Below the pieces are notes generated by a model, which worked only from the letters and a program-made list of their open reading frames with translations, searched no databases and was not told where the DNA came from. Source: an uncultured Bacilli bacterium (GTDB taxonomy: Bacteria; Bacillota_I; Bacilli_A; RF39; UBA660). Taken from it: a stretch of 64,000 bases of DNA. The translations under genes were made by a program, and so were the position numbers. This document shows, in pieces, positions 46,812 to 57,760 of this stretch. How positions within the stretch are numbered: the stretch's first letter is position 1; every line of letters starts with the position of its first letter. Location of the stretch: assembly GCA_934167885.1 (NCBI GenBank), contig CAKPMB010000008.1, forward strand, positions 65 through 64,064, given 5' to 3'.

Positions 46812-46845
46812 GGAGATAAGGTTACTTATCTATTTTTTTTGTTTT
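46805..46845. terminator. Bidirectional terminator hairpin between tspO and the convergent ligase gene
   Basis: AGATAAG...CTTATCT followed by T-runs. Confidence 0.5.
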
Positions 46846-48556
46846 TTTCTTGTTCTTCAAGTTCTTTGTAAGCAACTTTACCAACTAAGGTTTTAGGTAA
46901 ATCATCTCTAAATTCGTATTCGTATGGAAGGGCGTATTTGGAGATGTTTTTGGCACAATATTCTTTAATGCTTTTTAGCGTATCATTGTTAGGTTTGAAA
47001 CCTGGATTTAAAACAATAAAGGCTTTAGCAACTTCTACTTTATATGGATGTGGAATACCAATAACGGTTGAAAAAGCTACCGCTTCGTGTTTATCAAGAA
47101 CGTCTTCAATTTGGCTTGGATAAATATTATAGCCACTTGAAACAATCATTCTTTTTAAACGTTGTTCAAAGAAGACAAAACCTTCTTCATCCATATGGCC
47201 AATATCACCAGTATGTAACCATAAAAGACCATCTTCATGCGTTCTTAAAGTCTGCATAGTTTCTTCAACGTCATTTAAATATCCCAACATAACGGTTGGT
47301 CCATTTATACAAATTTCACCATCAACACCTCTTGGGACTTCTTCATGCGTGCCTATTTTAACAATTTTAAAATGCATATCAGGGAAGGGGATACCAATAC
47401 AATGTTCACGCATTTCATCTCTTAAACTAAGACAGCAGGCAGAAGAACTTTCCGTTAAGCCATATCCAACTCTAACCTTTGCAAGAGATCCACGTTCATA
47501 AAGGAAAGCATCAACTTTTCTTTTTAATTCAGTGGACATAGTATCACCACCTGAAATAATATTTTTAACATCTTTAAAACTTATTTTTTTAAATTCTTTA
47601 GCGTTAGTTAATGTTTCAAAAAGAGTAGGGACACCAACTAAGAAATTAGGATGATATGTTTTAATTAAGTGTTTCATATCTTTAAATTTAAAACTTGGAA
47701 TTAATACACAACGCATACCAATACATAATGTGGTATGAATACATACTCCTAAGCCAAAACCATGAAATATTGGTAAGATACAAAGAATCGTATCACCCTT
47801 ATCATTAGGCGTAGCCATGGCTTTAGCTTGCTCGGCTAAGGCATTAAAATTATAGTTTGATAACAAGATGCCTTTTGATTTACCAGTTGTTCCTCCACTA
47901 TATAAGATAATCGCTGGATCATTTTTATCTTTCTTGGCAATATATGGATCATGATAAGCATTTTTATAACTTATTAATTCTTGCCAAGTAATTATTAAGT
48001 CACTAATAGGAATTTTGTTTTTTCGTCCTTTAGCAAGCCAATACATAAATTTTTTGGGTAGTTGCATCGTATTTCCAGGACTTACAACAATAATCGTGCG
48101 CACTTTGGTTTGACTAATAATAGGTAATATTTTATCAATAACCACGTCTACCATTAACATTCTGGTAGTGTTAGACATTTGAAGATAATGGAGTATTTCA
48201 TTTTCACTCGATAGAGGATGCACCATATTGGCGATGCAACCAATCATGTTAATAGCATAAAACATGGTAATGGCTTCTGGCATATTAGGTGTGCATATTG
48301 TAATAACTTCACCTTCTTGTGTTCCAAGAGCTTTAAGAGACTTAGCACATTCATTGATGTCTTTAATAAAACGTTGATATGTTACTTGATGGCCAAAGTA
48401 TTCATAAGCGATGTAGTTAGGATGATCGTTGGCTGTTTCAAATAAATGTTCATAAATCATGCCTTCTGGATATTTTAGGTTACTTACACCTTTACCATAG
48501 TATTTATCAATTAAATTATGATTTTCTTTCTCTAGGTTCTTTAATGATTTTTTCAC
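46826..48556 (-). CDS. AMP-binding acyl-CoA synthetase/ligase (GTG start preceded by AAGGAGG)
   Basis: 'YSGGTTGKSKGI', 'GYGLTE', 'LHTGDIG', 'KVAYKEL'. The longer ORF-track start at 48631 was rejected in favour of the internal GTG that has a perfect RBS. Confidence 0.75.
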   Translation of the reverse strand: MKKSLKNLEKENHNLIDKYYGKGVSNLKYPEGMIYEHLFETANDHPNYIAYEYFGHQVTYQRFIKDINECAKSLKALGTQEGEVITICTPNMPEAITMFYAINMIGCIANMVHPLSSENEILHYLQMSNTTRMLMVDVVIDKILPIISQTKVRTIIVVSPGNTMQLPKKFMYWLAKGRKNKIPISDLIITWQELISYKNAYHDPYIAKKDKNDPAIILYSGGTTGKSKGILLSNYNFNALAEQAKAMATPNDKGDTILCILPIFHGFGLGVCIHTTLCIGMRCVLIPSFKFKDMKHLIKTYHPNFLVGVPTLFETLTNAKEFKKISFKDVKNIISGGDTMSTELKRKVDAFLYERGSLAKVRVGYGLTESSSACCLSLRDEMREHCIGIPFPDMHFKIVKIGTHEEVPRGVDGEICINGPTVMLGYLNDVEETMQTLRTHEDGLLWLHTGDIGHMDEEGFVFFEQRLKRMIVSSGYNIYPSQIEDVLDKHEAVAFSTVIGIPHPYKVEVAKAFIVLNPGFKPNNDTLKSIKEYCAKNISKYALPYEYEFRDDLPKTLVGKVAYKELEEQEKNKKNR

Positions 48557-49418
48557 TAGCAGCCTCCTTAAATAGTTCAGGATTTTGTAAAATGTCTTCA
48601 AATAAATTAATAGCTTTGGCCATGTATACACCGTCGGCGATACGTTCGTCTAAGTTTGCTCCAATTTCTAAAACATCACGAATTTCAATTTTATCATTTA
48701 TAACCATGGGTTCTTTATGAATTTTGCCAAAAGTTATTAGAATACCATTTGTTCCAAAGTTAGTAATGTTATGATATATTGCGCCACAATTAATACTTCC
48801 TAAATTTGATAAAATAGCCGTGCTGTTGTATAGAAGATTTTCACTAAAACTTCTTGGTAATAAATCGTGTTTATCCATCCATTTAACAATTCTTGCGGCA
48901 ATTCCTAGAATAGGACGTGGTAGTTTGTCTAAAATATCAACTGCATTGTCGGTATCATTTTGAATATTACTTCTTACTTTATCAACTTTATTTTTAATAG
49001 TCTTTTTAATATCATCAACATTATCAGTTGGTAAGACTTTGATAACTGAAAGAAATTCTTTAGCATCATCTTCAAATGCTACTTTAGCAGTGAAGGCTAA
49101 AGTTACATCATCACGTTCATAGCATGTATGATTAATAATGTAACGATTTAAATAAGGTCTATTGTAGACAACACGGGCACATGCATATGATAGAAGATGA
49201 AAGTAGGTGATTTCACTATCTTTCTTTTTCTTTTCTTCCATATATTTAACTAAGTTTGTAACATCAATAGTTTTATTTATATAAACATCGGCATTGTGTC
49301 TTTCTTTTAGGTATGTGCACATTCTTAAAACACCGTTCATTTTTAATTTTCGAGCATCCCTACGATCTCCTAATTTCTTTTTGTAGGGCTTGCCATACAT
49401 GTCATGCGCTAACTTCAT
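48516..49418 (-). CDS. 2-oxoacid-dehydrogenase E2 catalytic-domain-like (CAT-fold) acyltransferase, with catalytic His replaced (DERIADG)
   Basis: C-terminal 'DERIADGVYMAKAINLFEDILQNPELF' aligns to the E2 'DHRxxDGxxAxxFLxxxxxxLExP' motif; overlaps the downstream ligase gene by 41 nt. Confidence 0.5.
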   Translation of the reverse strand: MKLAHDMYGKPYKKKLGDRRDARKLKMNGVLRMCTYLKERHNADVYINKTIDVTNLVKYMEEKKKKDSEITYFHLLSYACARVVYNRPYLNRYIINHTCYERDDVTLAFTAKVAFEDDAKEFLSVIKVLPTDNVDDIKKTIKNKVDKVRSNIQNDTDNAVDILDKLPRPILGIAARIVKWMDKHDLLPRSFSENLLYNSTAILSNLGSINCGAIYHNITNFGTNGILITFGKIHKEPMVINDKIEIRDVLEIGANLDERIADGVYMAKAINLFEDILQNPELFKEAASEKIIKEPRERKS

Positions 49419-50707: not shown

Positions 50708-50769
50708 AAAAATGACAATGAAATAGCATATTTAACTAAATGTATATAAAATATTTTAAGAGGTGTCTT

Positions 50770-53247
50770 ATGAATTATTATGGAATATATCGTAAAGTAA
50801 AAATAGGGGAAACTAATTATTATCAATTATTTAAAGTTACGAATTCGCTTGGCGAAATTGAAAATGCAAGTGAATTAAATTCAACTGACAACAATGATTT
50901 TGTCTACTCTCAAATTTTAGATGACCAAGTTGATATTTATAAAAACCTTCTTTATCAATTAATTTTAGGTAAGAATCAAAATAACGAAATAGCAGTAGTT
51001 GATATTAGATATGCTGATTATGGCGATGTTATAAATCAATTTAAGAAAAAATATAATGATTTTAAAATTGATGCTTCATATAATGATGTTACTTGTTTCG
51101 ATAAATCAGGCAAAATTATTGCTTATGATGATATTCTTATTGAAGAAATAAGACAAGTTTATGATGATAGTAATAACGAAATAATTGATGATTTAAAAGA
51201 TCAAGTTGATGATGAATTAGGCGACATTTATAAAACATTAAGTAATAAAATTTATTTTCAGAAAGATAATTTAGTTGTTTTAGCTAATACAATCTATTTA
51301 AATAGAAGACAATCAAGTAAATATGATAATAAAAAAATATTCACTAAACCATCTACTATCTTTATAAGTGGTCCAAAAGAAACAGGTAAAAAAACTATGG
51401 CTTTGGAAACTGTCAAGCTTTTGGACAAAAAATATTCGGTATTTAATGTTGGTGGTGATTTCTTAGAAGACATTGAGGCTTTAGGATTAAAAGAGGCTTG
51501 TGTTAATAACTTTTTCCGTCAAATAAAGGATGATTTGGACAATAAAAGTAATTGCTTATATGGTGACGTTGTCATTAATATTCCATATATTGAAGATGAG
51601 ATGATGTTTGAGGATATTCTTGGCTTTTTATATCGTGTTTTAAATGAATATAAAAGTGTTACAATAGATGGTCAAAAATTGGATATTTCGCATATAAATT
51701 ATATTATTTCTTTAGATGATACCATTGTTGGCACCCTATCAGAGGCGGTAAAGGTTATCTTTGCTAAAAATGATCTATATAATGTTACATTTTTTGAAAC
51801 ACCTGAATTAACAAAAGAAAAGTTAAAATACATTATCTTGTTTAGTGATTCAAGTGCTCTTAACTTAAAGAAGAAGGAATATGAAAATGAAGGTGTATCG
51901 ATTATTGTTGAGGATGCTTTCTTAGATGAAGCAATAGATCTTGCTATGAAACATGGTAAAGGTATTAGCTTTATTAATAATATTATTAAACAATATATTG
52001 ATTCGGCATATGTGTATGGTAAAAAGATAATTAGATTAAGTAAGAAAGAACTTTTGCTAGCAACTCAAGATAATCAAGTTGATGAAGTAGAAGTCGCTTT
52101 TGAAGATGAAGAATTAGTTGGCGATGAAACAAATGCTTATAGTGATCTTGATACTAATTTTAGAATTAATTATCAACGTCTTCGCAATGATTATCAAACC
52201 CGTTTTGAATATTTAAAAGAATATGTTAAAGGACAAGATGAAGCTCTAAAGTGTATTTTGCAACAATTTTGTTTAAATACCCAAGTTCAAGAAAGCAATG
52301 TTTCTATGCGTGAAAAACGTCAAAATATGTCGCATATGTTAATTCAAGGAAATGCTGGAAGTGGTAAGACATACATTACAACAATGATTGCGGAAACTTT
52401 TGAAGATAAGCCTTGTATTGTTGCTGATGCAACTGAATATACAGAAGCTGGTTATGTTGGTAAAAGCGTTGAAGATATGTTAATTCAGTTATATTTAGTA
52501 TCTGGTAAAGATATTGAAAAAGCCCAAAAAGGTATATTAATAATTGATGAATTTGATAAACTTGCTGATAATAGTAGTAATCGTAGTGATGTAACACGTG
52601 GTGCTGTTCAAGATTCATTATTAAAACTATTGGAAGGTAATAAATATGAACTTGAATTAAAAGAGGGTTTGGGTTCACACAAAATTATGTTCGATACAAG
52701 TGAATTACAAGTTTATTGCTTGGGAGCTTTTGAAGGTCTTGATAAAATTCGGGATGAACGTATAAAGAAGATTAGTAAAGCGAACGTTGTTGGTTTTGGA
52801 TCTCAAAGTCAAGATGAAAAAATAAAGGCTCTTAAACAAGAAAATTCATATGACTCAACTGATTATAAGAAATACGGTATCCATATCCAAGGATTACGTC
52901 GTCTTAAAAATCATGTTGAACTTAAAAAGTTAACAAAAGAAGACTTTCTAGATATCGCTCTTCATTCTAATTCAAGTGATTTCTTAAATGAAATACATCT
53001 TTTCAACCTTATGGGGATTGAAGTTAATTGGGATGATGATTTTATGAACGAATACATTGATAGATCATATAATTTAGGTTATGGTGTCAGTGGTTTAGGT
53101 ATTGTTTTACAAAAAGTAATTCGTTATGCAAAAATTGCTGTTTTAGAAGGTGATTATCAAAAAATTATTCTTACAAAAGAATGTATTGATAATCCATTAT
53201 TAGTAAAATTAATTAAGAAAGATTCAAAAAAACTTGTAAAAAAGTAA
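50770..53247 (+). CDS. ClpX-family AAA+ unfoldase paralogue with a ~500-aa N-terminal extension (no zinc-binding domain)
   Basis: C-terminal module: Walker A 'GNAGSGKT', pore-1 'EAGYVGKSVE', Walker B 'ILIIDEFDKL', 'LLKLLEG', IGF-like 'VVGFGS'. N-terminal part carries a degenerate P-loop 'GPKETGKKT'. RBS AGAGGTG. Confidence 0.65.
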   Translation: MNYYGIYRKVKIGETNYYQLFKVTNSLGEIENASELNSTDNNDFVYSQILDDQVDIYKNLLYQLILGKNQNNEIAVVDIRYADYGDVINQFKKKYNDFKIDASYNDVTCFDKSGKIIAYDDILIEEIRQVYDDSNNEIIDDLKDQVDDELGDIYKTLSNKIYFQKDNLVVLANTIYLNRRQSSKYDNKKIFTKPSTIFISGPKETGKKTMALETVKLLDKKYSVFNVGGDFLEDIEALGLKEACVNNFFRQIKDDLDNKSNCLYGDVVINIPYIEDEMMFEDILGFLYRVLNEYKSVTIDGQKLDISHINYIISLDDTIVGTLSEAVKVIFAKNDLYNVTFFETPELTKEKLKYIILFSDSSALNLKKKEYENEGVSIIVEDAFLDEAIDLAMKHGKGISFINNIIKQYIDSAYVYGKKIIRLSKKELLLATQDNQVDEVEVAFEDEELVGDETNAYSDLDTNFRINYQRLRNDYQTRFEYLKEYVKGQDEALKCILQQFCLNTQVQESNVSMREKRQNMSHMLIQGNAGSGKTYITTMIAETFEDKPCIVADATEYTEAGYVGKSVEDMLIQLYLVSGKDIEKAQKGILIIDEFDKLADNSSNRSDVTRGAVQDSLLKLLEGNKYELELKEGLGSHKIMFDTSELQVYCLGAFEGLDKIRDERIKKISKANVVGFGSQSQDEKIKALKQENSYDSTDYKKYGIHIQGLRRLKNHVELKKLTKEDFLDIALHSNSSDFLNEIHLFNLMGIEVNWDDDFMNEYIDRSYNLGYGVSGLGIVLQKVIRYAKIAVLEGDYQKIILTKECIDNPLLVKLIKKDSKKLVKK

Positions 53248-53334
53248 TTTGAATCTTTTTTTATAATATTAATATTTTATATTTCCTATCATTAATTTTG
53301 TATGTTATAATAATAATCGATAATAGGTGATGAT

Positions 53335-54765
53335 ATGAAGACGGTTATGCTTTTAATTAATGGTTTTGGTGTTGAAGATAAAAAGTCATATTCTATATAT
53401 GATAAAGAATTAATGCCTAATATAGATATGCTTAATAAAAAATATATATTTTCATCAATGAAAGCTGATGTTAATAACTATCGCGATGGATATCGCAATA
53501 TGTGCTTAGAAGTCAATGAGATGTATAATTATGGTATTTTTAGTGAAGCAGTTAATAATAATACTTTATTATCCAATAAACAATATCTTGATATGAAAAA
53601 TGAGCTTTTAAAAAGAAAGAGCAAATTGCATCTTTTTTGTCTTTTAGATGATAGTGAAAGAATTGTTGAACAACTAAAACTTGTTCTTAAAGATTTAAAT
53701 CCAGAAAAAAACTTAAAAATTTATCTTCATATTATATTAACTAGTGGTAATTATGAAGATTATAGTAAAATAGTTAAAATACTTAGCAAAATTAATGTTG
53801 ATTTAGCTGATTATGTGAAGATAGGCCTAGTTTTTGGTCTTGCATCTATTAGTAATAATAATCCAGTAACAGAGTTTAATTATTTCTTTAAAATTTTTAT
53901 TTCAGAAATATGTGAACGTTGGCAATCATTCTCACAAAAGTTTGATGTTTGTTATAATTTAAAACAATCGCCTAATATGGTTAAACCTTTTGTTGTTAAT
54001 AATGGTTTCTCTCTTGATAAAGATGATTTATTTATTTTTTGGAATTATGACCGCGTTGATTTAACAACTTTTATAAGTATGACTTTAGGTATTAAATATG
54101 GTAGTGATAACAATAATTTTAAAATGCTATCTTTGTTTGAATTAATAAGCAAAGAAAAAATTCCATATCTTCTTAATTATCACCCAGCTAGTAAGTCTTT
54201 AGCATCTAATTTAAAAGATTTAAAAGCAACAGCTTTAATTGTTGCTAAAAAGAGTCAAATTGCCGTAATTAATTATTATGCTAATGGTCTACAAAGTATT
54301 CAAAATCCTGATATTTCCTTTATTGAAGCTGATAATTATTTATTTAAGCCTAAGGAATTATTAAGTATTATTAATACTTATCAACAAGATTTAATTATTA
54401 TTAATTATGATATTGATAATGTTAAAAATATTAGTGAATTAAAGCAGTTATTGCATAATATTGATATTATGATTGGCAATATTTATGAGAATTCTCTAGG
54501 TAGTAAGTATAGTATTTTAATTAGTTCATTGTATGGTATTAATAAAATAATGCCAAATGATAAAGGTGAAATTTGTAATGTTTTATTCAGTAATAAAGTT
54601 CCTATTATTTTTATAGATGATTTTATTACTAAACATAATCACTTAGTAGAAGAGGGTAGAATTAGTAATTTATTACCTATTTGTTATAAAAATATTAACG
54701 CAAATTATAAAGGATATTCCATTATTGCTAAGATGAATGCTTTATATCGTTTATTTTTTAAATAG
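53335..54765 (+). CDS. Degenerate cofactor-independent phosphoglycerate mutase (iPGM)-like protein, probably non-catalytic
   Basis: 'KLHLFCLLDDSERIV' and 'IYLHIILTSGNYED' align to iPGM 'SLHLFGLLSDGGVHS' and 'VYIHGFLDGRD'. Several metal and catalytic positions appear replaced: DGFG to NGFG, DHG to LYG, GHSG to KNIS. Confidence 0.4.
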   Translation: MKTVMLLINGFGVEDKKSYSIYDKELMPNIDMLNKKYIFSSMKADVNNYRDGYRNMCLEVNEMYNYGIFSEAVNNNTLLSNKQYLDMKNELLKRKSKLHLFCLLDDSERIVEQLKLVLKDLNPEKNLKIYLHIILTSGNYEDYSKIVKILSKINVDLADYVKIGLVFGLASISNNNPVTEFNYFFKIFISEICERWQSFSQKFDVCYNLKQSPNMVKPFVVNNGFSLDKDDLFIFWNYDRVDLTTFISMTLGIKYGSDNNNFKMLSLFELISKEKIPYLLNYHPASKSLASNLKDLKATALIVAKKSQIAVINYYANGLQSIQNPDISFIEADNYLFKPKELLSIINTYQQDLIIINYDIDNVKNISELKQLLHNIDIMIGNIYENSLGSKYSILISSLYGINKIMPNDKGEICNVLFSNKVPIIFIDDFITKHNHLVEEGRISNLLPICYKNINANYKGYSIIAKMNALYRLFFK

Positions 54766-54779
54766 AATATGGAGGATTT

Positions 54780-56279
54780 ATGCTTAAAAGATTATACAAT
54801 AGTTTTAAGGATTCGTTTATATCGGTTGCCCCAATAACTATATTAATATTAGTGGTTGCTTATTTAATAGGATGTAGTAGTAAAGTTATTATATCTTTTT
54901 CCATAAGTGCCCTTTTATTAATTATTGGTATAACGTTATTTACATTTGGTGCAGATTTATCAATGGTGATGATTGGTGAAAAGATTGGTAATTCGCTTAT
55001 AAAGAGAAAAAAATTATTTAGTGTTTTAGCAATAACTTTGGTTATTGGCTTTGTTATAACGATTGCTGAACCTGATTTAATGGTTTTAGCATCACAATTG
55101 ACATCTATTCCTAATGTTTTAATAATAACGTTGGTGGCTTTGGGAGTTGGTCTTTTCTTGATGTTATCGCTTTTTAGAATAATCAAGGGAATTAAAATTA
55201 ATACTATTTTATCAATTAGTTATATTATTATATTTATATTAATGCTTTTCTCGTCACCTTCTTTTATAACCGTTGCATTTGATTCAGGAGGTGTCACCAC
55301 TGGTCCAATGAGTGTGCCTTTTATTGTCGCTTTAGGTTATGGCTTTACAAAACTTCGTAATGATAAACAAGCTCGTAATGATACTTTTGGTCTTGTAGGT
55401 ATTGCCTCAATTGGTCCTATCATCGTTGTTTTACTTTTAGGTATTTTATTTCATCCTGCAAGTTCTTATGATACATCAAGTTTCTTTTCAAATGGTTCAC
55501 TTTTAATTGAATATTTAGATAGTTTTTATCATAATTTTGTGGAAGCGACAATTTCATTAGTTCCTATTTTAGTTGTCTTTATTATTTTTGAACTTTTGGC
55601 AAATACTCTAAACAATTATGATATGCGGAAAATCGTTTTAGGACTTTGTTCGTCCCTTGTTGGTTTAACTGTGTTTTTAACTGGCGTTGAAGTTGGCTTT
55701 ATTAAAATGGGTTATGAAATTGGTAACCTTTTTGCAAGTCATAATATGCCTATTTTGCTTATCATTTTAGGGATGGTTGTTGGTTATTTAATTGTTAAAG
55801 CAGAACCGGCTGTTAAAGTTTTAAATGAACAAATATCCGACTTGACAGAAGGTAGTATATCTAAAAAAATGATTGGCCTTTGCTTATCAATTGGTGTATC
55901 CTTAGCTGTTGGTTTATCACTTATAAGATTATTTTTAAAAATTCCAATTACATATTTTTTAGTTCCGGGTTATATCCTATCAATAATTTTAGCTTACAAG
56001 ACACAGGATATATTTACAGCGGTTGCGTTTGATTCAGGTGGGGCAGCATCCGGTCCATTAACGACATCTTTTCTGCTTCCTATTGCTATAGGAGCGTGTA
56101 TGGCAAATGGTGGCGATATTATGACTTTGGCTTTTGGTGTTGTATCTTTAGTTTCTTTGTCACCGCTTATTACTATTCAGCTTTTAGGCTTAGTATATGA
56201 ATGTCGTATAAATAAACAAACACTTGCTAAAGTTAAAGATTTAGATGAATCTATTTTAGATTATGAGGTTTCATTATGA
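54780..56279 (+). CDS. DUF1538-family membrane protein (internal duplication)
   Basis: Repeated 'AFDSGGVTTGPMSVPF' and 'AFDSGGAASGPLTTSF' halves; polytopic. Confidence 0.6.
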   Translation: MLKRLYNSFKDSFISVAPITILILVVAYLIGCSSKVIISFSISALLLIIGITLFTFGADLSMVMIGEKIGNSLIKRKKLFSVLAITLVIGFVITIAEPDLMVLASQLTSIPNVLIITLVALGVGLFLMLSLFRIIKGIKINTILSISYIIIFILMLFSSPSFITVAFDSGGVTTGPMSVPFIVALGYGFTKLRNDKQARNDTFGLVGIASIGPIIVVLLLGILFHPASSYDTSSFFSNGSLLIEYLDSFYHNFVEATISLVPILVVFIIFELLANTLNNYDMRKIVLGLCSSLVGLTVFLTGVEVGFIKMGYEIGNLFASHNMPILLIILGMVVGYLIVKAEPAVKVLNEQISDLTEGSISKKMIGLCLSIGVSLAVGLSLIRLFLKIPITYFLVPGYILSIILAYKTQDIFTAVAFDSGGAASGPLTTSFLLPIAIGACMANGGDIMTLAFGVVSLVSLSPLITIQLLGLVYECRINKQTLAKVKDLDESILDYEVSL

Positions 56280-56935
56280 AGTTAAAAATATTAGTAATAA
56301 TTTCGGATAGTGATAAGAAAATTGTCAAGTTTGTAAATATGTTCAATTTACCATTTAATACGATAAGTTCGGCCAGTGGCACGGCCTCTCAAAGTATATT
56401 AGATTTTTTTGGTTTAAAAGCAACTGAAAAATTTGTATCATTTTCTATTTATCCCGATTATTTAGAAGATGAATTATATAAAAAGTTAGACAATAAATTA
56501 CATTTAGATGAAATAGGAAATGGTATTGCATTCTCTATACCACTATCTAGTTCAAGTAAATATGTTGCCTTGGCATTTGAAAATAAAAAAGAAGGTGAAA
56601 AAATGACTTCCAAAAATAATATAGATTATCATTTAATACTTACCATTGTGCAAGAAGGGTATGCCGATAAAGTAATGAGTGCTGCTAAGAAGTGTGGCGC
56701 GAATGGAGGCACTATTATCAATGCTCGAGCTATTGGTGATAAAAATAGTTTTAAATTCTTTAATATAACGATGGAACCAGAAAAAGACATTGTGTTAATT
56801 GTTTGCCATAATAGTAATAAAAATAAAATTATGGATGCTATTGTTAATAAAAGTGGGATTAAAACCGAAGCAAAAGGTATGTGTATATCACTTCCAATTG
56901 ACAATTTAATTGGCATCAATCAAGATGTCGAATAA
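56276..56935 (+). CDS. Tandem P-II-like (GlnB-fold) protein, partner of the DUF1538 protein
   Basis: Two ~105-aa halves, each with a P-II-like beta-alpha-beta pattern ('HLILTIVQEGYADKVMSAAKKCGANGGTIINARAIG'); overlaps the upstream stop. Confidence 0.45.
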   Translation: MKLKILVIISDSDKKIVKFVNMFNLPFNTISSASGTASQSILDFFGLKATEKFVSFSIYPDYLEDELYKKLDNKLHLDEIGNGIAFSIPLSSSSKYVALAFENKKEGEKMTSKNNIDYHLILTIVQEGYADKVMSAAKKCGANGGTIINARAIGDKNSFKFFNITMEPEKDIVLIVCHNSNKNKIMDAIVNKSGIKTEAKGMCISLPIDNLIGINQDVE

Positions 56936-57349
56936 TGTCTAAAATAGTGTAAATGTAATTTTAAAAAAATGTCAATTATTGACTTTGATTTTAAATAATA
57001 GTATATTGATTATAGAGTCCATTAGATAAGTGATAAGGAGTTATATGAGATGGGATAATGTCCCATAGTTTACCGAAAGTAAACTAAATTTCCTAATAAA
57101 TAGGGTAAAATTGTAAAACATTGATCACTTTAATTAAATATTTAAACTGAATTAAGAACTCACATAGAAATATGTAATCAGTTAACTATTCAATTAATTA
57201 GTGTAGGAGGTGATTTACCTATAATTGATAAGTAAATCATTAAAAATTGCACTAAAATTGTTAATGATTTGACTTATATAATTAGCATAAAAAAACTAAT
57301 TATTGTCAATGTAGGGTTTAAATTTAAAAGATATGCGTGTGCATATCTT

Positions 57350-57613
57350 TTACTTTGTCTTATCATCTTTCTTAGCATTTAACTTAATCCAATATTCTAG
57401 TGGTTTAGCATCCAAACTTTTAATAATTTTATCCTTATTTCCGCGATACGTTGAACGGATTTTTTTATACTTTATAAAAGCATAACCAGGATCTTTATCA
57501 ATTACTAAATAAAGTTGAACACCATATATTGAGAAGAAATGTGGTTCAAAAACTTCATAGGCAAAGCCTACAATAATATCGGCATATTTATTTAATTTAT
57601 ATTGTTGTAACAT
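57350..57613 (-). CDS. Hypothetical small protein (87 aa)
   Basis: RBS GGAGGAATTT upstream; no motifs. Confidence 0.45.
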   Translation of the reverse strand: MLQQYKLNKYADIIVGFAYEVFEPHFFSIYGVQLYLVIDKDPGYAFIKYKKIRSTYRGNKDKIIKSLDAKPLEYWIKLNAKKDDKTK

Positions 57614-57760
57614 AAATTCCTCCTAGATAAGTTGTATTATAAATTAACGATTTTGACTTAGCAATTCTTTTTACATAAATTTGCCAAGCAATTTTAATAA
57701 TTCATTGTATTGTTTTATCAAATAATGTATAATGTTGATAGAATTTGATGTAGGTGAAGT

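What the first reader, a model, noticed from the sequence alone, without database searches (positions are those of the whole stretch)
50770..54765. Orphan ClpX-family unfoldase with a 500-aa N-terminal extension, paired with a degenerate (likely dead) iPGM-like protein
Seen in sequence: the C-terminal half of the 825-aa protein keeps the ClpX hallmarks. These are Walker A GNAGSGKT, the pore loop EAGYVGKSVE (GYVG), Walker B ILIIDEFDKL, LLKLLEG, and a VGFGS loop resembling the ClpP-docking IGF loop. The ClpX zinc-binding N-domain is replaced by ~500 aa of unknown sequence with a degenerate P-loop (GPKETGKKT). The gene is not next to clpP or tig. The downstream 476-aa ORF aligns to cofactor-independent phosphoglycerate mutase (LHLFCLLDDSERIV and IYLHIILTSGNYED versus LHLFGLLSDGGVHS and VYIHGFLDGRD). 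Its metal and catalytic residues appear substituted (DGFG to NGFG, GHSG to KNIS, DHG to LYG), so it is a probable pseudoenzyme. Inference: this is a specialised ClpP-dependent or stand-alone unfoldase with a novel substrate or adaptor domain. The dead mutase may act as an adaptor or regulator, in an uncharacterised proteolysis or defence module.
Basis: partly seen in the sequence, partly recalled or inferred. Interest (0 to 1): 0.6.

Follow-up and report, generated by a model that had tools for sequence, protein, structure and literature searches.

The report
Double ClpX unfoldase beside dead mutase operon
The region holds two separately transcribed genes from an uncultured gut bacterium: a ClpX-type protein-unfolding motor that carries a second, dead copy of its own ATPase module, and a catalytically dead phosphoglycerate-mutase look-alike that heads a membrane-transporter operon. 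Both are unusual variants of known protein types, but they are not a functional pair.

Summary
The sequence observations are correct. The proposed pairing is not supported.

**Gene A (50770-53247, 825 aa)**
- The C-terminal module (D2) is an intact ClpX-type module. It has Walker A and B, a GYVG pore loop, an Arg finger, and a VGF loop aligned on ClpX's ClpP-docking loop.
- The "unknown 500 aa" are a family-specific N-domain, a degenerate internally duplicated ClpX module (D1) and a linker. D1 against D2 by hhalign gives 99.8% probability, E 2.5e-30. D1 against E. coli ClpX gives E 1e-26.
- There is no zinc finger. The sensor-II arginine is lost in this protein.
- The family (about 730-825 aa) was found only in uncultured gut and rumen Bacilli.

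**Gene B (53335-54765, 476 aa)**
- It has a confident iPGM fold (pLDDT 90; Foldseek E 1e-27).
- All seven metal ligands and the catalytic serine are lost or deleted, at the positions checked in 30 homologues.

**Linkage**
- A ends in a terminator-like hairpin.
- B has its own conserved extended -10 promoter.
- B sits 2-13 nt upstream of a DUF1538 membrane protein and a P-II-like gene in 27 of 28 species.
- A is missing from this site in 10 of 22 species, without remnants, through several independent losses.
- No defence-system match was found.

Whether the genome also has clpP or a canonical clpX could not be tested.

The parts
50713..50718 (+). TGACAA motif about 55 nt upstream of the gene A start. 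It is a candidate -35 element or operator.
   Evidence: An [AG]TG[AT]CAA motif sits about 50-60 nt upstream of the A start in most of the 15 loci, whether or not dinB is upstream; it is not evident in L027. Function inferred only.
50770..53247 (+). Gene A: 825-aa tandem-module ClpX-family AAA+ protein (N-domain, dead D1, linker, active D2).
   Evidence: ORF and RBS. Family alignment A2. ClpX model hits.
50770..51264 (+). Residues 1-165: family-specific N-domain (motif YRKxxIGxxNYYQLFK) plus an insertion of about 45 aa that no other aligned family member carries. No cysteine cluster, so no ClpX zinc finger.
   Evidence: Alignment A2. No Pfam hit. No PDB sequence hit for profile positions 1-119. 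The AF2 model is unreliable here (pLDDT below 50).
51265..52074 (+). Residues 166-435: D1, a degenerate ClpX-derived AAA+ module with large and small subdomains. The P-loop remnant is GPKETGKKT (51370-51396). The Walker B position reads VVINIPY. There is no GYVG pore loop and no IGF loop.
   Evidence: hhalign D1 against D2: 99.8%, E 2.5e-30, 255 columns. N+D1 profile against E. coli ClpX: E 1.3e-26 over both subdomains. The same profile against zinc-finger ClpX proteins: 2.9e-17 to 2.4e-13. Motif table.
52075..52203 (+). Residues 436-478: acidic, poorly conserved linker between D1 and D2.
   Evidence: Mean pairwise identity 0.13. pLDDT below 50 for residues 433-471.
52204..53244 (+). Residues 479-825: D2, an intact ClpX-type AAA+ module. 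Walker A is GNAGSGKT (52348-52371). The pore-1 loop is GYVG (52450-52461). Walker B is ILIIDEFDK (52534-52560). The VGF loop is at 52789-52797 and Arg finger R711 at 52900-52902. The sensor-II position is Ser774 instead of Arg (53089-53091).
   Evidence: VVGFGSQ aligns with the GLGFGAE ClpP-docking loop of ClpX 8yd0, and GVSGL aligns with GARGL.
53215..53262 (+). Terminator-like hairpin with a U-run, overlapping the stop codon of gene A.
   Evidence: RNA fold -14.7 kcal/mol, z = -4.9, 0 of 200 shuffles as stable. Inverted repeat I1. Most loci carry a T-run of 7 or more bases about 35-55 nt upstream of the B start.
53303..53311 (+). Extended -10 promoter element TGTTATAAT for the gene B operon. 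The RBS AGGTGA is at 53325-53330.
   Evidence: A TGnTAnAAT-type element lies about 32-37 nt (range -23 to -49) before the B start in nearly all loci, whether A, dinB, thioredoxin, a glycosyltransferase or DUF87 lies upstream.
53335..54765 (+). Gene B: 476-aa iPGM-fold pseudoenzyme, first gene of the B, DUF1538, P-II-like operon.
   Evidence: AF2 pLDDT 90.4. Foldseek top 22 hits are all iPGMs, best E 1.1e-27. The catalytic and metal residues are lost. More than 215 homologues were found, and the 120 listed are 45-67% identical outside the query's own cluster.
54780..56279 (+). Fused double-DUF1538 membrane protein (499 aa), distantly UmpA/UmpB-like. It starts 14 nt after gene B.
   Evidence: PF07556 E 3.4e-118 with two repeats. 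UmpA and UmpB models score 152 and 104 bits, below their cut-offs. Adjacent to B in 27 of 28 species.
56276..56935 (+). 219-aa P-II-like protein. Its start overlaps the DUF1538 stop by 4 nt.
   Evidence: PF00543 E 3.8e-6 on residues 120-212. The DUF1538-to-P-II gap is -8 to +11 nt in all loci. No PDB sequence match.
57325..57352 (+). Terminator-like hairpin downstream of the P-II-like gene; the probable end of the B operon.

Best explanation
The interval contains two independent things.

**1. Gene A is a 'double ClpX'.**
- It belongs to a lineage-restricted family found in uncultured gut and rumen Bacilli.
- In this family a ClpX-type AAA+ module was tandemly duplicated behind a new N-domain of about 100 aa.
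- The upstream copy (D1) has decayed. No member keeps the Walker-B glutamate, the GYVG pore loop or the ClpP loop. In this protein the P-loop itself is also broken.
- The downstream copy (D2) keeps the ATP-binding and hydrolysis motifs (except the sensor-II arginine), the substrate-gripping pore loop and the ClpP-docking loop.
- Inferred mechanism: the protein forms a two-tier hexamer. The dead D1 ring plus the N-domain take the place of ClpX's zinc-finger domain as an assembly scaffold and a substrate or adaptor platform. D2 is the only motor and feeds unfolded chains into ClpP through its VGF loops.
- The gene is monocistronic, with its own conserved upstream motif and its own terminator.

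**2. Gene B is a catalytically dead iPGM-fold protein.**
- It heads a separate three-gene operon with a fused DUF1538 (UmpAB-like) membrane protein and a P-II-like protein.
- Inferred role: a non-catalytic cytoplasmic subunit of that transport module, acting in ligand sensing, regulation or assembly.

**What is shown and what is inferred.** Shown: domain architecture, motif states, fold, loss of catalytic residues, gene-order statistics and the intergenic signals. Inferred: ring stacking, ClpP dependence, and any physical link between B and the DUF1538 and P-II-like proteins.
For: **Gene A**
- D2 matches ClpX.
- D1 is homologous to D2 and to solved ClpX structures.
- D1 profiles retrieve zinc-finger ClpX proteins.
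- The motif table over 26 family members shows D2 motifs and an [IVLMT]G[FYL] loop kept. It shows the D1 Walker-B Glu absent in all members.
- D1 is monophyletic (98 of 100 NJ bootstraps). Its sub-clades mirror those of D2, which indicates one ancestral duplication.
- D1 and the N-domain evolve 3-5 times faster than D2 but stay in frame.

**Gene B**
- Full-length profile alignment to S. aureus iPGM shows D12 replaced by the invariant N9. The Ser62 segment and the D403/H407 segment are deleted. D444-H445 is replaced by L399-Y400, and H462 is lost.
- The predicted fold is confident and matches iPGM.

**Separation of A and B**
- Terminator-like hairpin after A.
- Conserved promoter before B.
- Gap statistics.
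- Neighbourhood counts.
- A-minus species are scattered over the B tree with no A remnants.
Against: - ClpP was not found in the window. Its presence in the genome is unknown, so ClpP dependence rests only on the conserved loop.
- The sensor-II arginine, which is important for ATP hydrolysis in E. coli ClpX (my own knowledge), is Ser in this protein and lost in 4 other family members. D2 may therefore be a weak ATPase.
- The AF2 model of A is poor for the N-terminal half, so ring stacking is untested.
- The whole block dinB, A, B, DUF1538, P-II, p486, NAGPA is syntenic in a single lineage. Adjacency of B to DUF1538 and P-II could partly reflect inheritance rather than function.
- In L017 B lacks DUF1538 and P-II. 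In L006 three genes are inserted between B and DUF1538.
Confidence: 0.6

Rival explanations
1. One reading: A and B form a functional module in which the dead mutase is an adaptor or regulator of the unfoldase, possibly in a proteolysis or defence system.
For: - A lies immediately upstream of B on the same strand in the window and in 12 of 22 informative species.
- That arrangement appears to be ancestral.
Against: - A terminator-like hairpin and a conserved B promoter lie between the two genes.
- A was lost from the site at least about 7 independent times, without remnants, while B was retained.
- B is tightly coupled to DUF1538 and P-II instead.
- No PADLOC hit.
- The neighbourhood is housekeeping.
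Confidence: 0.08
2. Gene A is simply the only ClpX of this fast-evolving lineage: the housekeeping orthologue that gained a dead extra ring, rather than a specialised paralogue beside a canonical ClpX.
For: - IMG annotates a family member as ClpX.
- All ClpX working motifs and the ClpP loop are conserved in D2.
- A sits in conserved chromosomal synteny with its own promoter-like motif.
- No second ClpX signature occurs in the window.
Against: - A is missing from its syntenic site in 10 of 22 species.
- D2 groups with other non-canonical ClpX-like proteins, mostly without a zinc finger, and apart from canonical zinc-finger ClpX. NJ bootstrap for that split is 85 of 100.
- It scores far below the ClpX equivalog cut-offs.
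- Whole genomes could not be searched.
Confidence: 0.3
3. Gene A works without ClpP, as a stand-alone remodelling or unfolding ATPase. The GF loop would be retained for another reason.
For: - No clpP was found within 64 kb.
- The sensor-II Arg and the RKH loop are lost.
- ClpP-independent ClpX functions are known (my own knowledge).
Against: - A hydrophobic-Gly-aromatic tripeptide is kept at the exact IGF position in 25 of 26 divergent members, although the surrounding loop is variable.
- It aligns on the LGF loop of a solved ClpX.
Confidence: 0.2
4. Gene B is still an enzyme. It would use a different active site or chemistry, for example in the conserved transferase-domain motifs EKWQSFxQK and KPFVVNxGF.
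For: - There is strong purifying selection. Mean column identity is 66%, and many invariant polar residues (H99, D105, H132, E194, K217, D239) are family-specific.
Against: - All seven metal ligands, the nucleophile Ser and the phosphoglycerate-binding arginines are gone.
- No other catalytic family matches.
- The only structural neighbours are alkaline-phosphatase-superfamily metalloenzymes.
Confidence: 0.1

Closest known systems
ClpX (bacterial ClpXP unfoldase; NCBIfam NF003745 and TIGR00382; PDB 6wr2, 8yd0)
   Same: - D2 aligns over about 335 residues (E 1.7e-37).
- It has Walker A and B, a GYVG pore-1 loop, sensor-1 and an Arg finger.
- It has a V-G-F tripeptide at the position of the IGF/LGF ClpP-docking loop.
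- D1 is also ClpX-derived.
   Different: - No C4 zinc-binding N-domain.
- Two ClpX-type modules instead of one, the first of them dead.
- The RKH loop is absent.
- The sensor-II Arg is replaced by Ser in this protein.
- It scores 160 bits against a cut-off of 359.
- The gene is not next to clpP or tig.
- In an NJ tree it groups with other non-canonical ClpX-like proteins, mostly without a zinc finger, rather than with canonical ClpX.
Two-ring Hsp100/Clp ATPases (ClpA, ClpB, ClpC, ClpE)
   Same: - Two AAA+ modules in one chain.
- A C-terminal module of the same broad clade as ClpX.
- In ClpA, ClpC and ClpE, a ClpP-docking loop in D2 (my own knowledge).
   Different: - In this protein D1 is itself ClpX-like. 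Its best matches are ClpX at 1e-26, against ClpA at about 3e-4.
- D1 arose by internal duplication.
- D1 is inactive.
- There is no Clp_N domain.
AAA+ proteins with one inactive ring (for example NSF D2; my own knowledge)
   Same: One degenerate ATPase ring is retained next to an active one. Its presumed role is assembly or as a platform.
   Different: These belong to a different AAA+ clade. No such arrangement has been described for ClpX in the literature I could search.
Cofactor-independent phosphoglycerate mutase (GpmI/iPGM; TIGR01307; PDB 4my4, 1ejj)
   Same: - Two-domain fold: an alkaline-phosphatase-like core with an inserted transferase domain.
- Foldseek E 1e-27, with full-length alignment.
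- Structural motifs such as LHLF and the (I/V)(Y/F)LH strand are kept.
   Different: - 16-18% identity.
- All Mn ligands, the catalytic Ser and the substrate-binding Arg, His and Lys residues are absent.
- It scores 35.7 bits against a cut-off of 330.
- It sits in an operon with a membrane protein rather than with glycolytic genes.
UmpAB, the DUF1538 Na+(Li+,K+)/H+ antiporter of Halomonas zhaodongensis (PMC5484666)
   Same: The gene downstream of B carries two DUF1538 repeats, equivalent to UmpA plus UmpB.
   Different: - The two halves are fused into one 499-aa chain.
- It scores far below the UmpA and UmpB cut-offs.
- It is accompanied by a P-II-like gene and the dead iPGM. The cloned 4.2-kb Halomonas fragment holds neither, and it ends at umpB.

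Membership tests
ClpX (equivalog NF003745 / TIGR00382) | Whole-protein HMM score at or above the curated cut-off | tested here: not met
   160.5 bits against 359, and 150 against 370.75.
ClpX | N-terminal C4 zinc-binding domain (PF06689) | tested here: not met
   No Pfam hit. No conserved cysteines in the N-domain of 26 family members.
ClpX | ClpX-type AAA+ module with Walker A and B, GYVG pore-1 loop and Arg finger | tested here: met
   D2 residues 479-825. There is also a second, degenerate module, which ClpX lacks.
ClpX | IGF/LGF loop that docks onto ClpP | tested here: met
   V674-G675-F676 aligns with the LGF of ClpX 8yd0. An [IVLMT]G[FYL] tripeptide is present in all 26 members (KAGF in P0131, IGL in P0134). 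Actual ClpP binding is not testable here.
ClpX | Sensor-II arginine (GARGL) and RKH loop | tested here: not met
   GVSGL in the window protein. The Arg is kept in 21 of 26 relatives. The RKH loop (GGRKHP) is replaced by EGLGSHK.
ClpX | ClpP encoded in the same genome | not testable with these tools
   No ClpP signature in the 64-kb window. Whole MAGs could not be fetched.
Class-I Hsp100/Clp (ClpA/B/C/E) | D1 of the ClpA/ClpB D1 type, plus a Clp_N domain | tested here: not met
   The N+D1 profile matches ClpX at 1.3e-26 and HslU at 3.5e-13 or weaker, but ClpA at only about 3e-4 to 8e-4, and that stretch falls in ClpA's D2 region. There is no Clp_N hit.
iPGM / GpmI (TIGR01307) | Whole-protein HMM score at or above the cut-off | tested here: not met
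   35.7 bits against 330.65. PF06415 scores 23.7 against 27.
iPGM / GpmI | Two-domain iPGM fold | tested here: met
   AF2 pLDDT 90.4. Foldseek 4my4 E 1.1e-27, TM 0.64.
iPGM / GpmI | Catalytic Ser62 and Mn ligands D12, D403, H407, D444, H445, H462 (B. stearothermophilus numbering, my own knowledge) | tested here: not met
   Profile-to-structure-sequence alignment: D12 is replaced by N9. The Ser62 and D403/H407 segments are deleted. DH is replaced by L399-Y400. H462 is lost. N9 is invariant and L399/Y400 are nearly invariant in 30 homologues. The mapping is sequence-based. No residue-level structural superposition was available.
iPGM / GpmI | Phosphoglycerate-binding residues (H123, R153, D154, R185, R191, R261, R264, K336) | tested here: not met
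   The aligned positions are non-basic, or fall in gaps, in the family consensus.
Known anti-phage defence systems (PADLOC-DB v2) | Significant match of any component to a defence-system model | tested here: not met
   Only generic P-loop matches were found (mad8 9.3e-5 with 0 stretches, TRIP13 2.7e-3). Nothing was found for B, DUF1538 or P-II.

The most novel reading that the evidence does not exclude
The A family is the sole ClpX of an uncultured gut Bacilli lineage. It would be an independent origin of a two-ring Clp unfoldase by tandem duplication of the ClpX-type module itself. The duplicated ring then died and, together with a new N-domain, replaced the zinc-finger adaptor domain. In parallel, the dead iPGM has been recruited as a metabolite-sensing subunit of a P-II-regulated DUF1538 cation/proton transporter.
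Probability: 0.2. Interest if true: 0.65.

Novelty: new variant of a known kind. Interest (0 to 1): 0.4.

Why it matters
For AAA+ biology, gene A would be a natural example of a ClpX motor that carries a stacked, inactive copy of its own ring in place of the zinc-finger adaptor domain. That would give a test case for how two-ring unfoldases arise and what a dead ring contributes, such as assembly, substrate selection or gating.

For pseudoenzyme biology, gene B is a well-conserved, confidently folded dead glycolytic enzyme that is translationally coupled to a poorly understood transporter family (DUF1538) and a P-II-like protein. That suggests a testable regulatory module.

Both genes come from uncultured gut and rumen bacteria, so the practical impact is modest. 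In addition, one A-family member carries an IMG 'ClpX' annotation. That label is misleading, given the double-module architecture and the score far below the ClpX model cut-offs.

Tried and rejected
- **Word-index homology searches for A.** saturated at 8000 candidates and returned almost no family members. The exhaustive representative search was needed.
- **Metagenome locus scan with the A alignment.** One search used the generic pattern GI[LVI]x[IL]DE[IF]DK and returned only matches confined to the D2 region at about 30% identity, consistent with ordinary single-module ClpX. A could therefore not be sampled independently of B.
- **AF2 model of A.** The result was pLDDT 55.8, below 50 for most of the N-terminal half, so it was not used for fold search.
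- **Fold library.** The afdb50 library was unavailable.
- **N-domain identity.** There was no Pfam hit and no PDB hit. An apparent resemblance to the N-terminus of the single-module protein P0142 was not supported by an N-domain HMM.
- **CtsR-type heptad repeat upstream of A.** I considered this for the conserved TG(A/T)CAA motif. Only one copy of the motif is present, so I rejected it by inspection.
- **Defence-system reading.** Rejected.
- **Literature searches.** Searches for tandem or degenerate ClpX, iPGM pseudoenzymes and DUF1538 with P-II found nothing relevant.
- **Rfam scan.** It found only two tRNAs, far from the locus.

Full report
**Observation**

The window is AT-rich (about 27% G+C) with strongly co-oriented genes.

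- Gene A runs 50770-53247 (825 aa). The ATG at 50770 is preceded by AAGAGGTG.
- Gene B runs 53335-54765 (476 aa).
- A residues 479-817 match the ClpX equivalog models at E 5.9e-47. The score is 160 bits against a cut-off of 359. HslU scores much lower, and Pfam sees only generic AAA families.
- B matches iPGM weakly. TIGR01307 gives E 3.4e-9 (35.7 bits against 330). PF06415 scores below its threshold.
- No ClpP, Lon, trigger-factor or second GYVG-type ATPase signature occurs in the 64 kb.
- The neighbours are DUF362, EamA, TspO, an AMP-ligase, an acyltransferase, DinB, then A, B, DUF1538, a P-II-like gene, an unassigned 486-aa protein, NAGPA and NlpC/P60.

**What the N-terminal 500 aa of A are**

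An exhaustive HMMER search found about 35 representative proteins of 728-825 aa that share homology well upstream of the ClpX module. Thousands of ordinary ClpX proteins followed.

Aligning 26 of the long proteins shows a constant architecture:
- an N-domain of about 100 aa with the motif LFRKxxIxGxxYYQ and no cysteine cluster;
- a block that reads like ClpX (QDxAIxxLxxxIYxNQ, then a GxxGxGK P-loop, then GIVFIRDN, IDFxxLTFV and a small-subdomain pattern);
- an acidic linker;
- the ClpX-like module.

Three results show that the block (D1) is a ClpX-derived module:
- Profile-profile comparison of D1 with the C-terminal module (D2) gives 99.8% probability, E 2.5e-30, over 255 columns.
- A profile of the N-domain plus D1 retrieves zinc-finger ClpX proteins at 2.9e-17 to 2.4e-13.
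- The same profile matches E. coli ClpX structures at 1.3e-26 across both AAA+ subdomains. Its first 119 positions match nothing.

So the 'unknown extension' is an N-domain plus an internally duplicated ClpX module.

The motif table shows that D1 is dead:
- no member keeps the Walker-B glutamate (RDN, FDG and similar);
- there is no GYVG pore loop and no IGF loop;
- the P-loop Ser/Thr is often Lys or Asn;
- in the window protein the P-loop is GPKETGKKT and the Walker B position reads VVINIPY.

D2 keeps Walker A, G[YF]xG, DE[IFL]DK and the Arg finger in all 26 members. All members also have a hydrophobic-Gly-aromatic tripeptide. In a pairwise alignment this tripeptide sits exactly on the LGF ClpP-docking loop of a solved ClpX.

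There are two departures from ClpX. The RKH loop is absent. The sensor-II arginine (GARGL) is Ser in the window protein and is lost in four relatives.

D1 and the N-domain evolve 3-5 times faster than D2 but remain in frame.

In an NJ tree:
- D1 modules are monophyletic (98 of 100 bootstraps);
- a D1 sub-clade mirrors the corresponding D2 sub-clade (92 and 100 of 100), consistent with one ancestral duplication;
- the family groups with other non-canonical ClpX-like proteins, mostly without a zinc finger, apart from canonical zinc-finger ClpX (85 of 100).

Other multi-module ClpX-like proteins exist in metagenomes. P0147 has two intact modules and P0126 has three.

It is unreliable for the N-terminal half and was not used further.

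**What B is**

B has more than 215 homologues of about 475 aa. The 120 listed are 45-67% identical outside the query's own cluster. Mean column identity in a 30-sequence alignment is 66%.

The family profile aligns over its full length with S. aureus iPGM. At the catalytic positions:
- Asp12 is replaced by the invariant Asn9;
- the segment carrying Ser62 and His66 is deleted;
- the GGVHSH, DGRD, RYYAMDRDKRW and NFRPDR substrate-binding motifs are not kept;
- the NPDMVGHSG segment (Asp403, His407) is largely deleted;
- Asp444-His445 becomes Leu399-Tyr400;
- His462 is lost.

The AF2 model is confident (pLDDT 90.4). Its 22 best PDB matches are all iPGMs (E 1e-27 to 6e-24, TM up to 0.64). Alkaline phosphatases follow far behind.

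B is therefore a conserved iPGM-fold protein without the catalytic machinery, so it is a pseudoenzyme. Its own invariant motifs are EKWQSFxQK and KPFVVNxGF.

**Is there an A-B pair?**

I examined 35 related loci, including 28 GTDB species representatives. All are uncultured gut or rumen Bacilli or 'Erysipelotrichaceae' MAGs.

- B is followed directly by the DUF1538 gene and the P-II-like gene in 27 of 28 species.
- The exceptions among all 35 loci are L017, where both are absent, and L006, where three genes are inserted.
- The B-to-DUF1538 gap is 2-13 nt in 30 of 33 loci.
- The DUF1538-to-P-II gap is -8 to +11 nt.
- A is upstream of B in 12 of 22 species that have enough upstream sequence, and absent in 10.
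- Where A directly abuts B the gap is 59-157 nt. In L012 a 1.4-kb stretch separates them.
- In L020 dinB abuts B directly.

The A-minus loci are scattered over the B tree, which implies roughly seven independent losses or relocations. They contain no A remnants by tblastn.

The sequence upstream of B has nearly the same layout in nearly all loci, whatever gene precedes it: a T-run, a TGnTAnAAT extended -10 about 32-37 nt before the start in most loci, and an AAAGGGTGAT-type RBS.

In the window, the stop codon of A lies inside a hairpin of -14.7 kcal/mol (z -4.9) followed by a U-run. TGTTATAAT sits at 53303-53311.

A has its own conserved upstream motif, [AG]TG[AT]CAA, in most of the 15 loci.

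Together these results show that A is a monocistronic gene and that B, DUF1538 and the P-II-like gene form an operon. The A-B adjacency is inherited synteny, not a functional pairing. PADLOC finds no defence-system relationship.

**Most likely mechanism**

For A (inferred):
- It forms a two-tier hexamer.
- The dead D1 ring and the N-domain replace the zinc-finger domain as a scaffold and a substrate or adaptor platform.
- D2 is the only motor and docks onto ClpP through the VGF loops.
- The missing sensor-II arginine may mean slow or differently regulated hydrolysis.

For B (inferred, weaker):
- It is a non-catalytic cytoplasmic partner of the fused DUF1538 membrane protein and the P-II-like protein.
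- The only characterised DUF1538 relative is the UmpAB Na+(Li+,K+)/H+ antiporter (PMC5484666).

**Unresolved**

I could not determine whether these genomes encode clpP, a canonical clpX or a genuine phosphoglycerate mutase. The fold and role of the N-domain are unknown.

**Verdict**

Each gene is a new variant of a known kind: a ClpX-family unfoldase with a dead duplicated ring, and an iPGM-fold pseudoenzyme. The proposed unfoldase-pseudoenzyme module is not supported. Interest is moderate.

Noticed in passing
window 50713-50718, and the equivalent positions in L004-L034: An [AG]TG[AT]CAA motif lies about 50-60 nt upstream of the gene A start in most of the 15 loci, whether or not dinB is upstream. 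It could be a -35 element or a regulator binding site. It occurs as a single copy, unlike a CtsR heptad repeat.
   Followed up: partly
window 54780-56935: The DUF1538 protein is a fused UmpA+UmpB-like double repeat (499 aa). It is followed by a 219-aa protein in which only the C-terminal half is recognisably P-II-like. The N-terminal half may be a second, degenerate P-II-like domain. The trio with the dead iPGM is conserved in 27 of 28 species.
   Followed up: partly
P0147 (700 aa), P0126 (1238 aa) and P0176 (987 aa): Other metagenomic ClpX-like proteins carry two or three AAA+ modules. P0147 has two apparently intact ClpX-type modules, each with its own IGF tripeptide. Many ClpX-like proteins of about 430-490 aa lack the zinc finger.
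   Followed up: partly
window 51100-51240 (gene A residues of about 110-160): An insertion of about 45 residues rich in Asp, Glu and Ile lies between the N-domain and D1. None of the 25 aligned relatives has it.
   Followed up: no
L006 9458-13049; L017 11458-12028: In L006 three unannotated genes (641, 320 and 229 aa) are inserted between B and the DUF1538 gene. In L017 the DUF1538 and P-II genes are missing, and B is followed directly by the p486-NAGPA pair.
   Followed up: no
window 56936-57760: There is an unusually long (about 825 nt) stretch without a long + strand gene after the P-II-like gene. It contains a terminator-like hairpin (57325-57352) and an 87-aa ORF on the minus strand (57350-57613). 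A similar gap follows the P-II gene in related loci.
   Followed up: no
window 46826-49418, minus strand: The 601-aa AMP-binding ORF (GTG start as listed) overlaps the upstream 300-aa acyltransferase ORF by 116 nt. The listed start of the AMP-ligase is probably too far upstream.
   Followed up: no
L012 8549-9991 and L013 8114-9596: A stretch of about 1.4 kb separates A (L012) or dinB (L013) from B. No gene matching any of the window queries lies in it.
   Followed up: no
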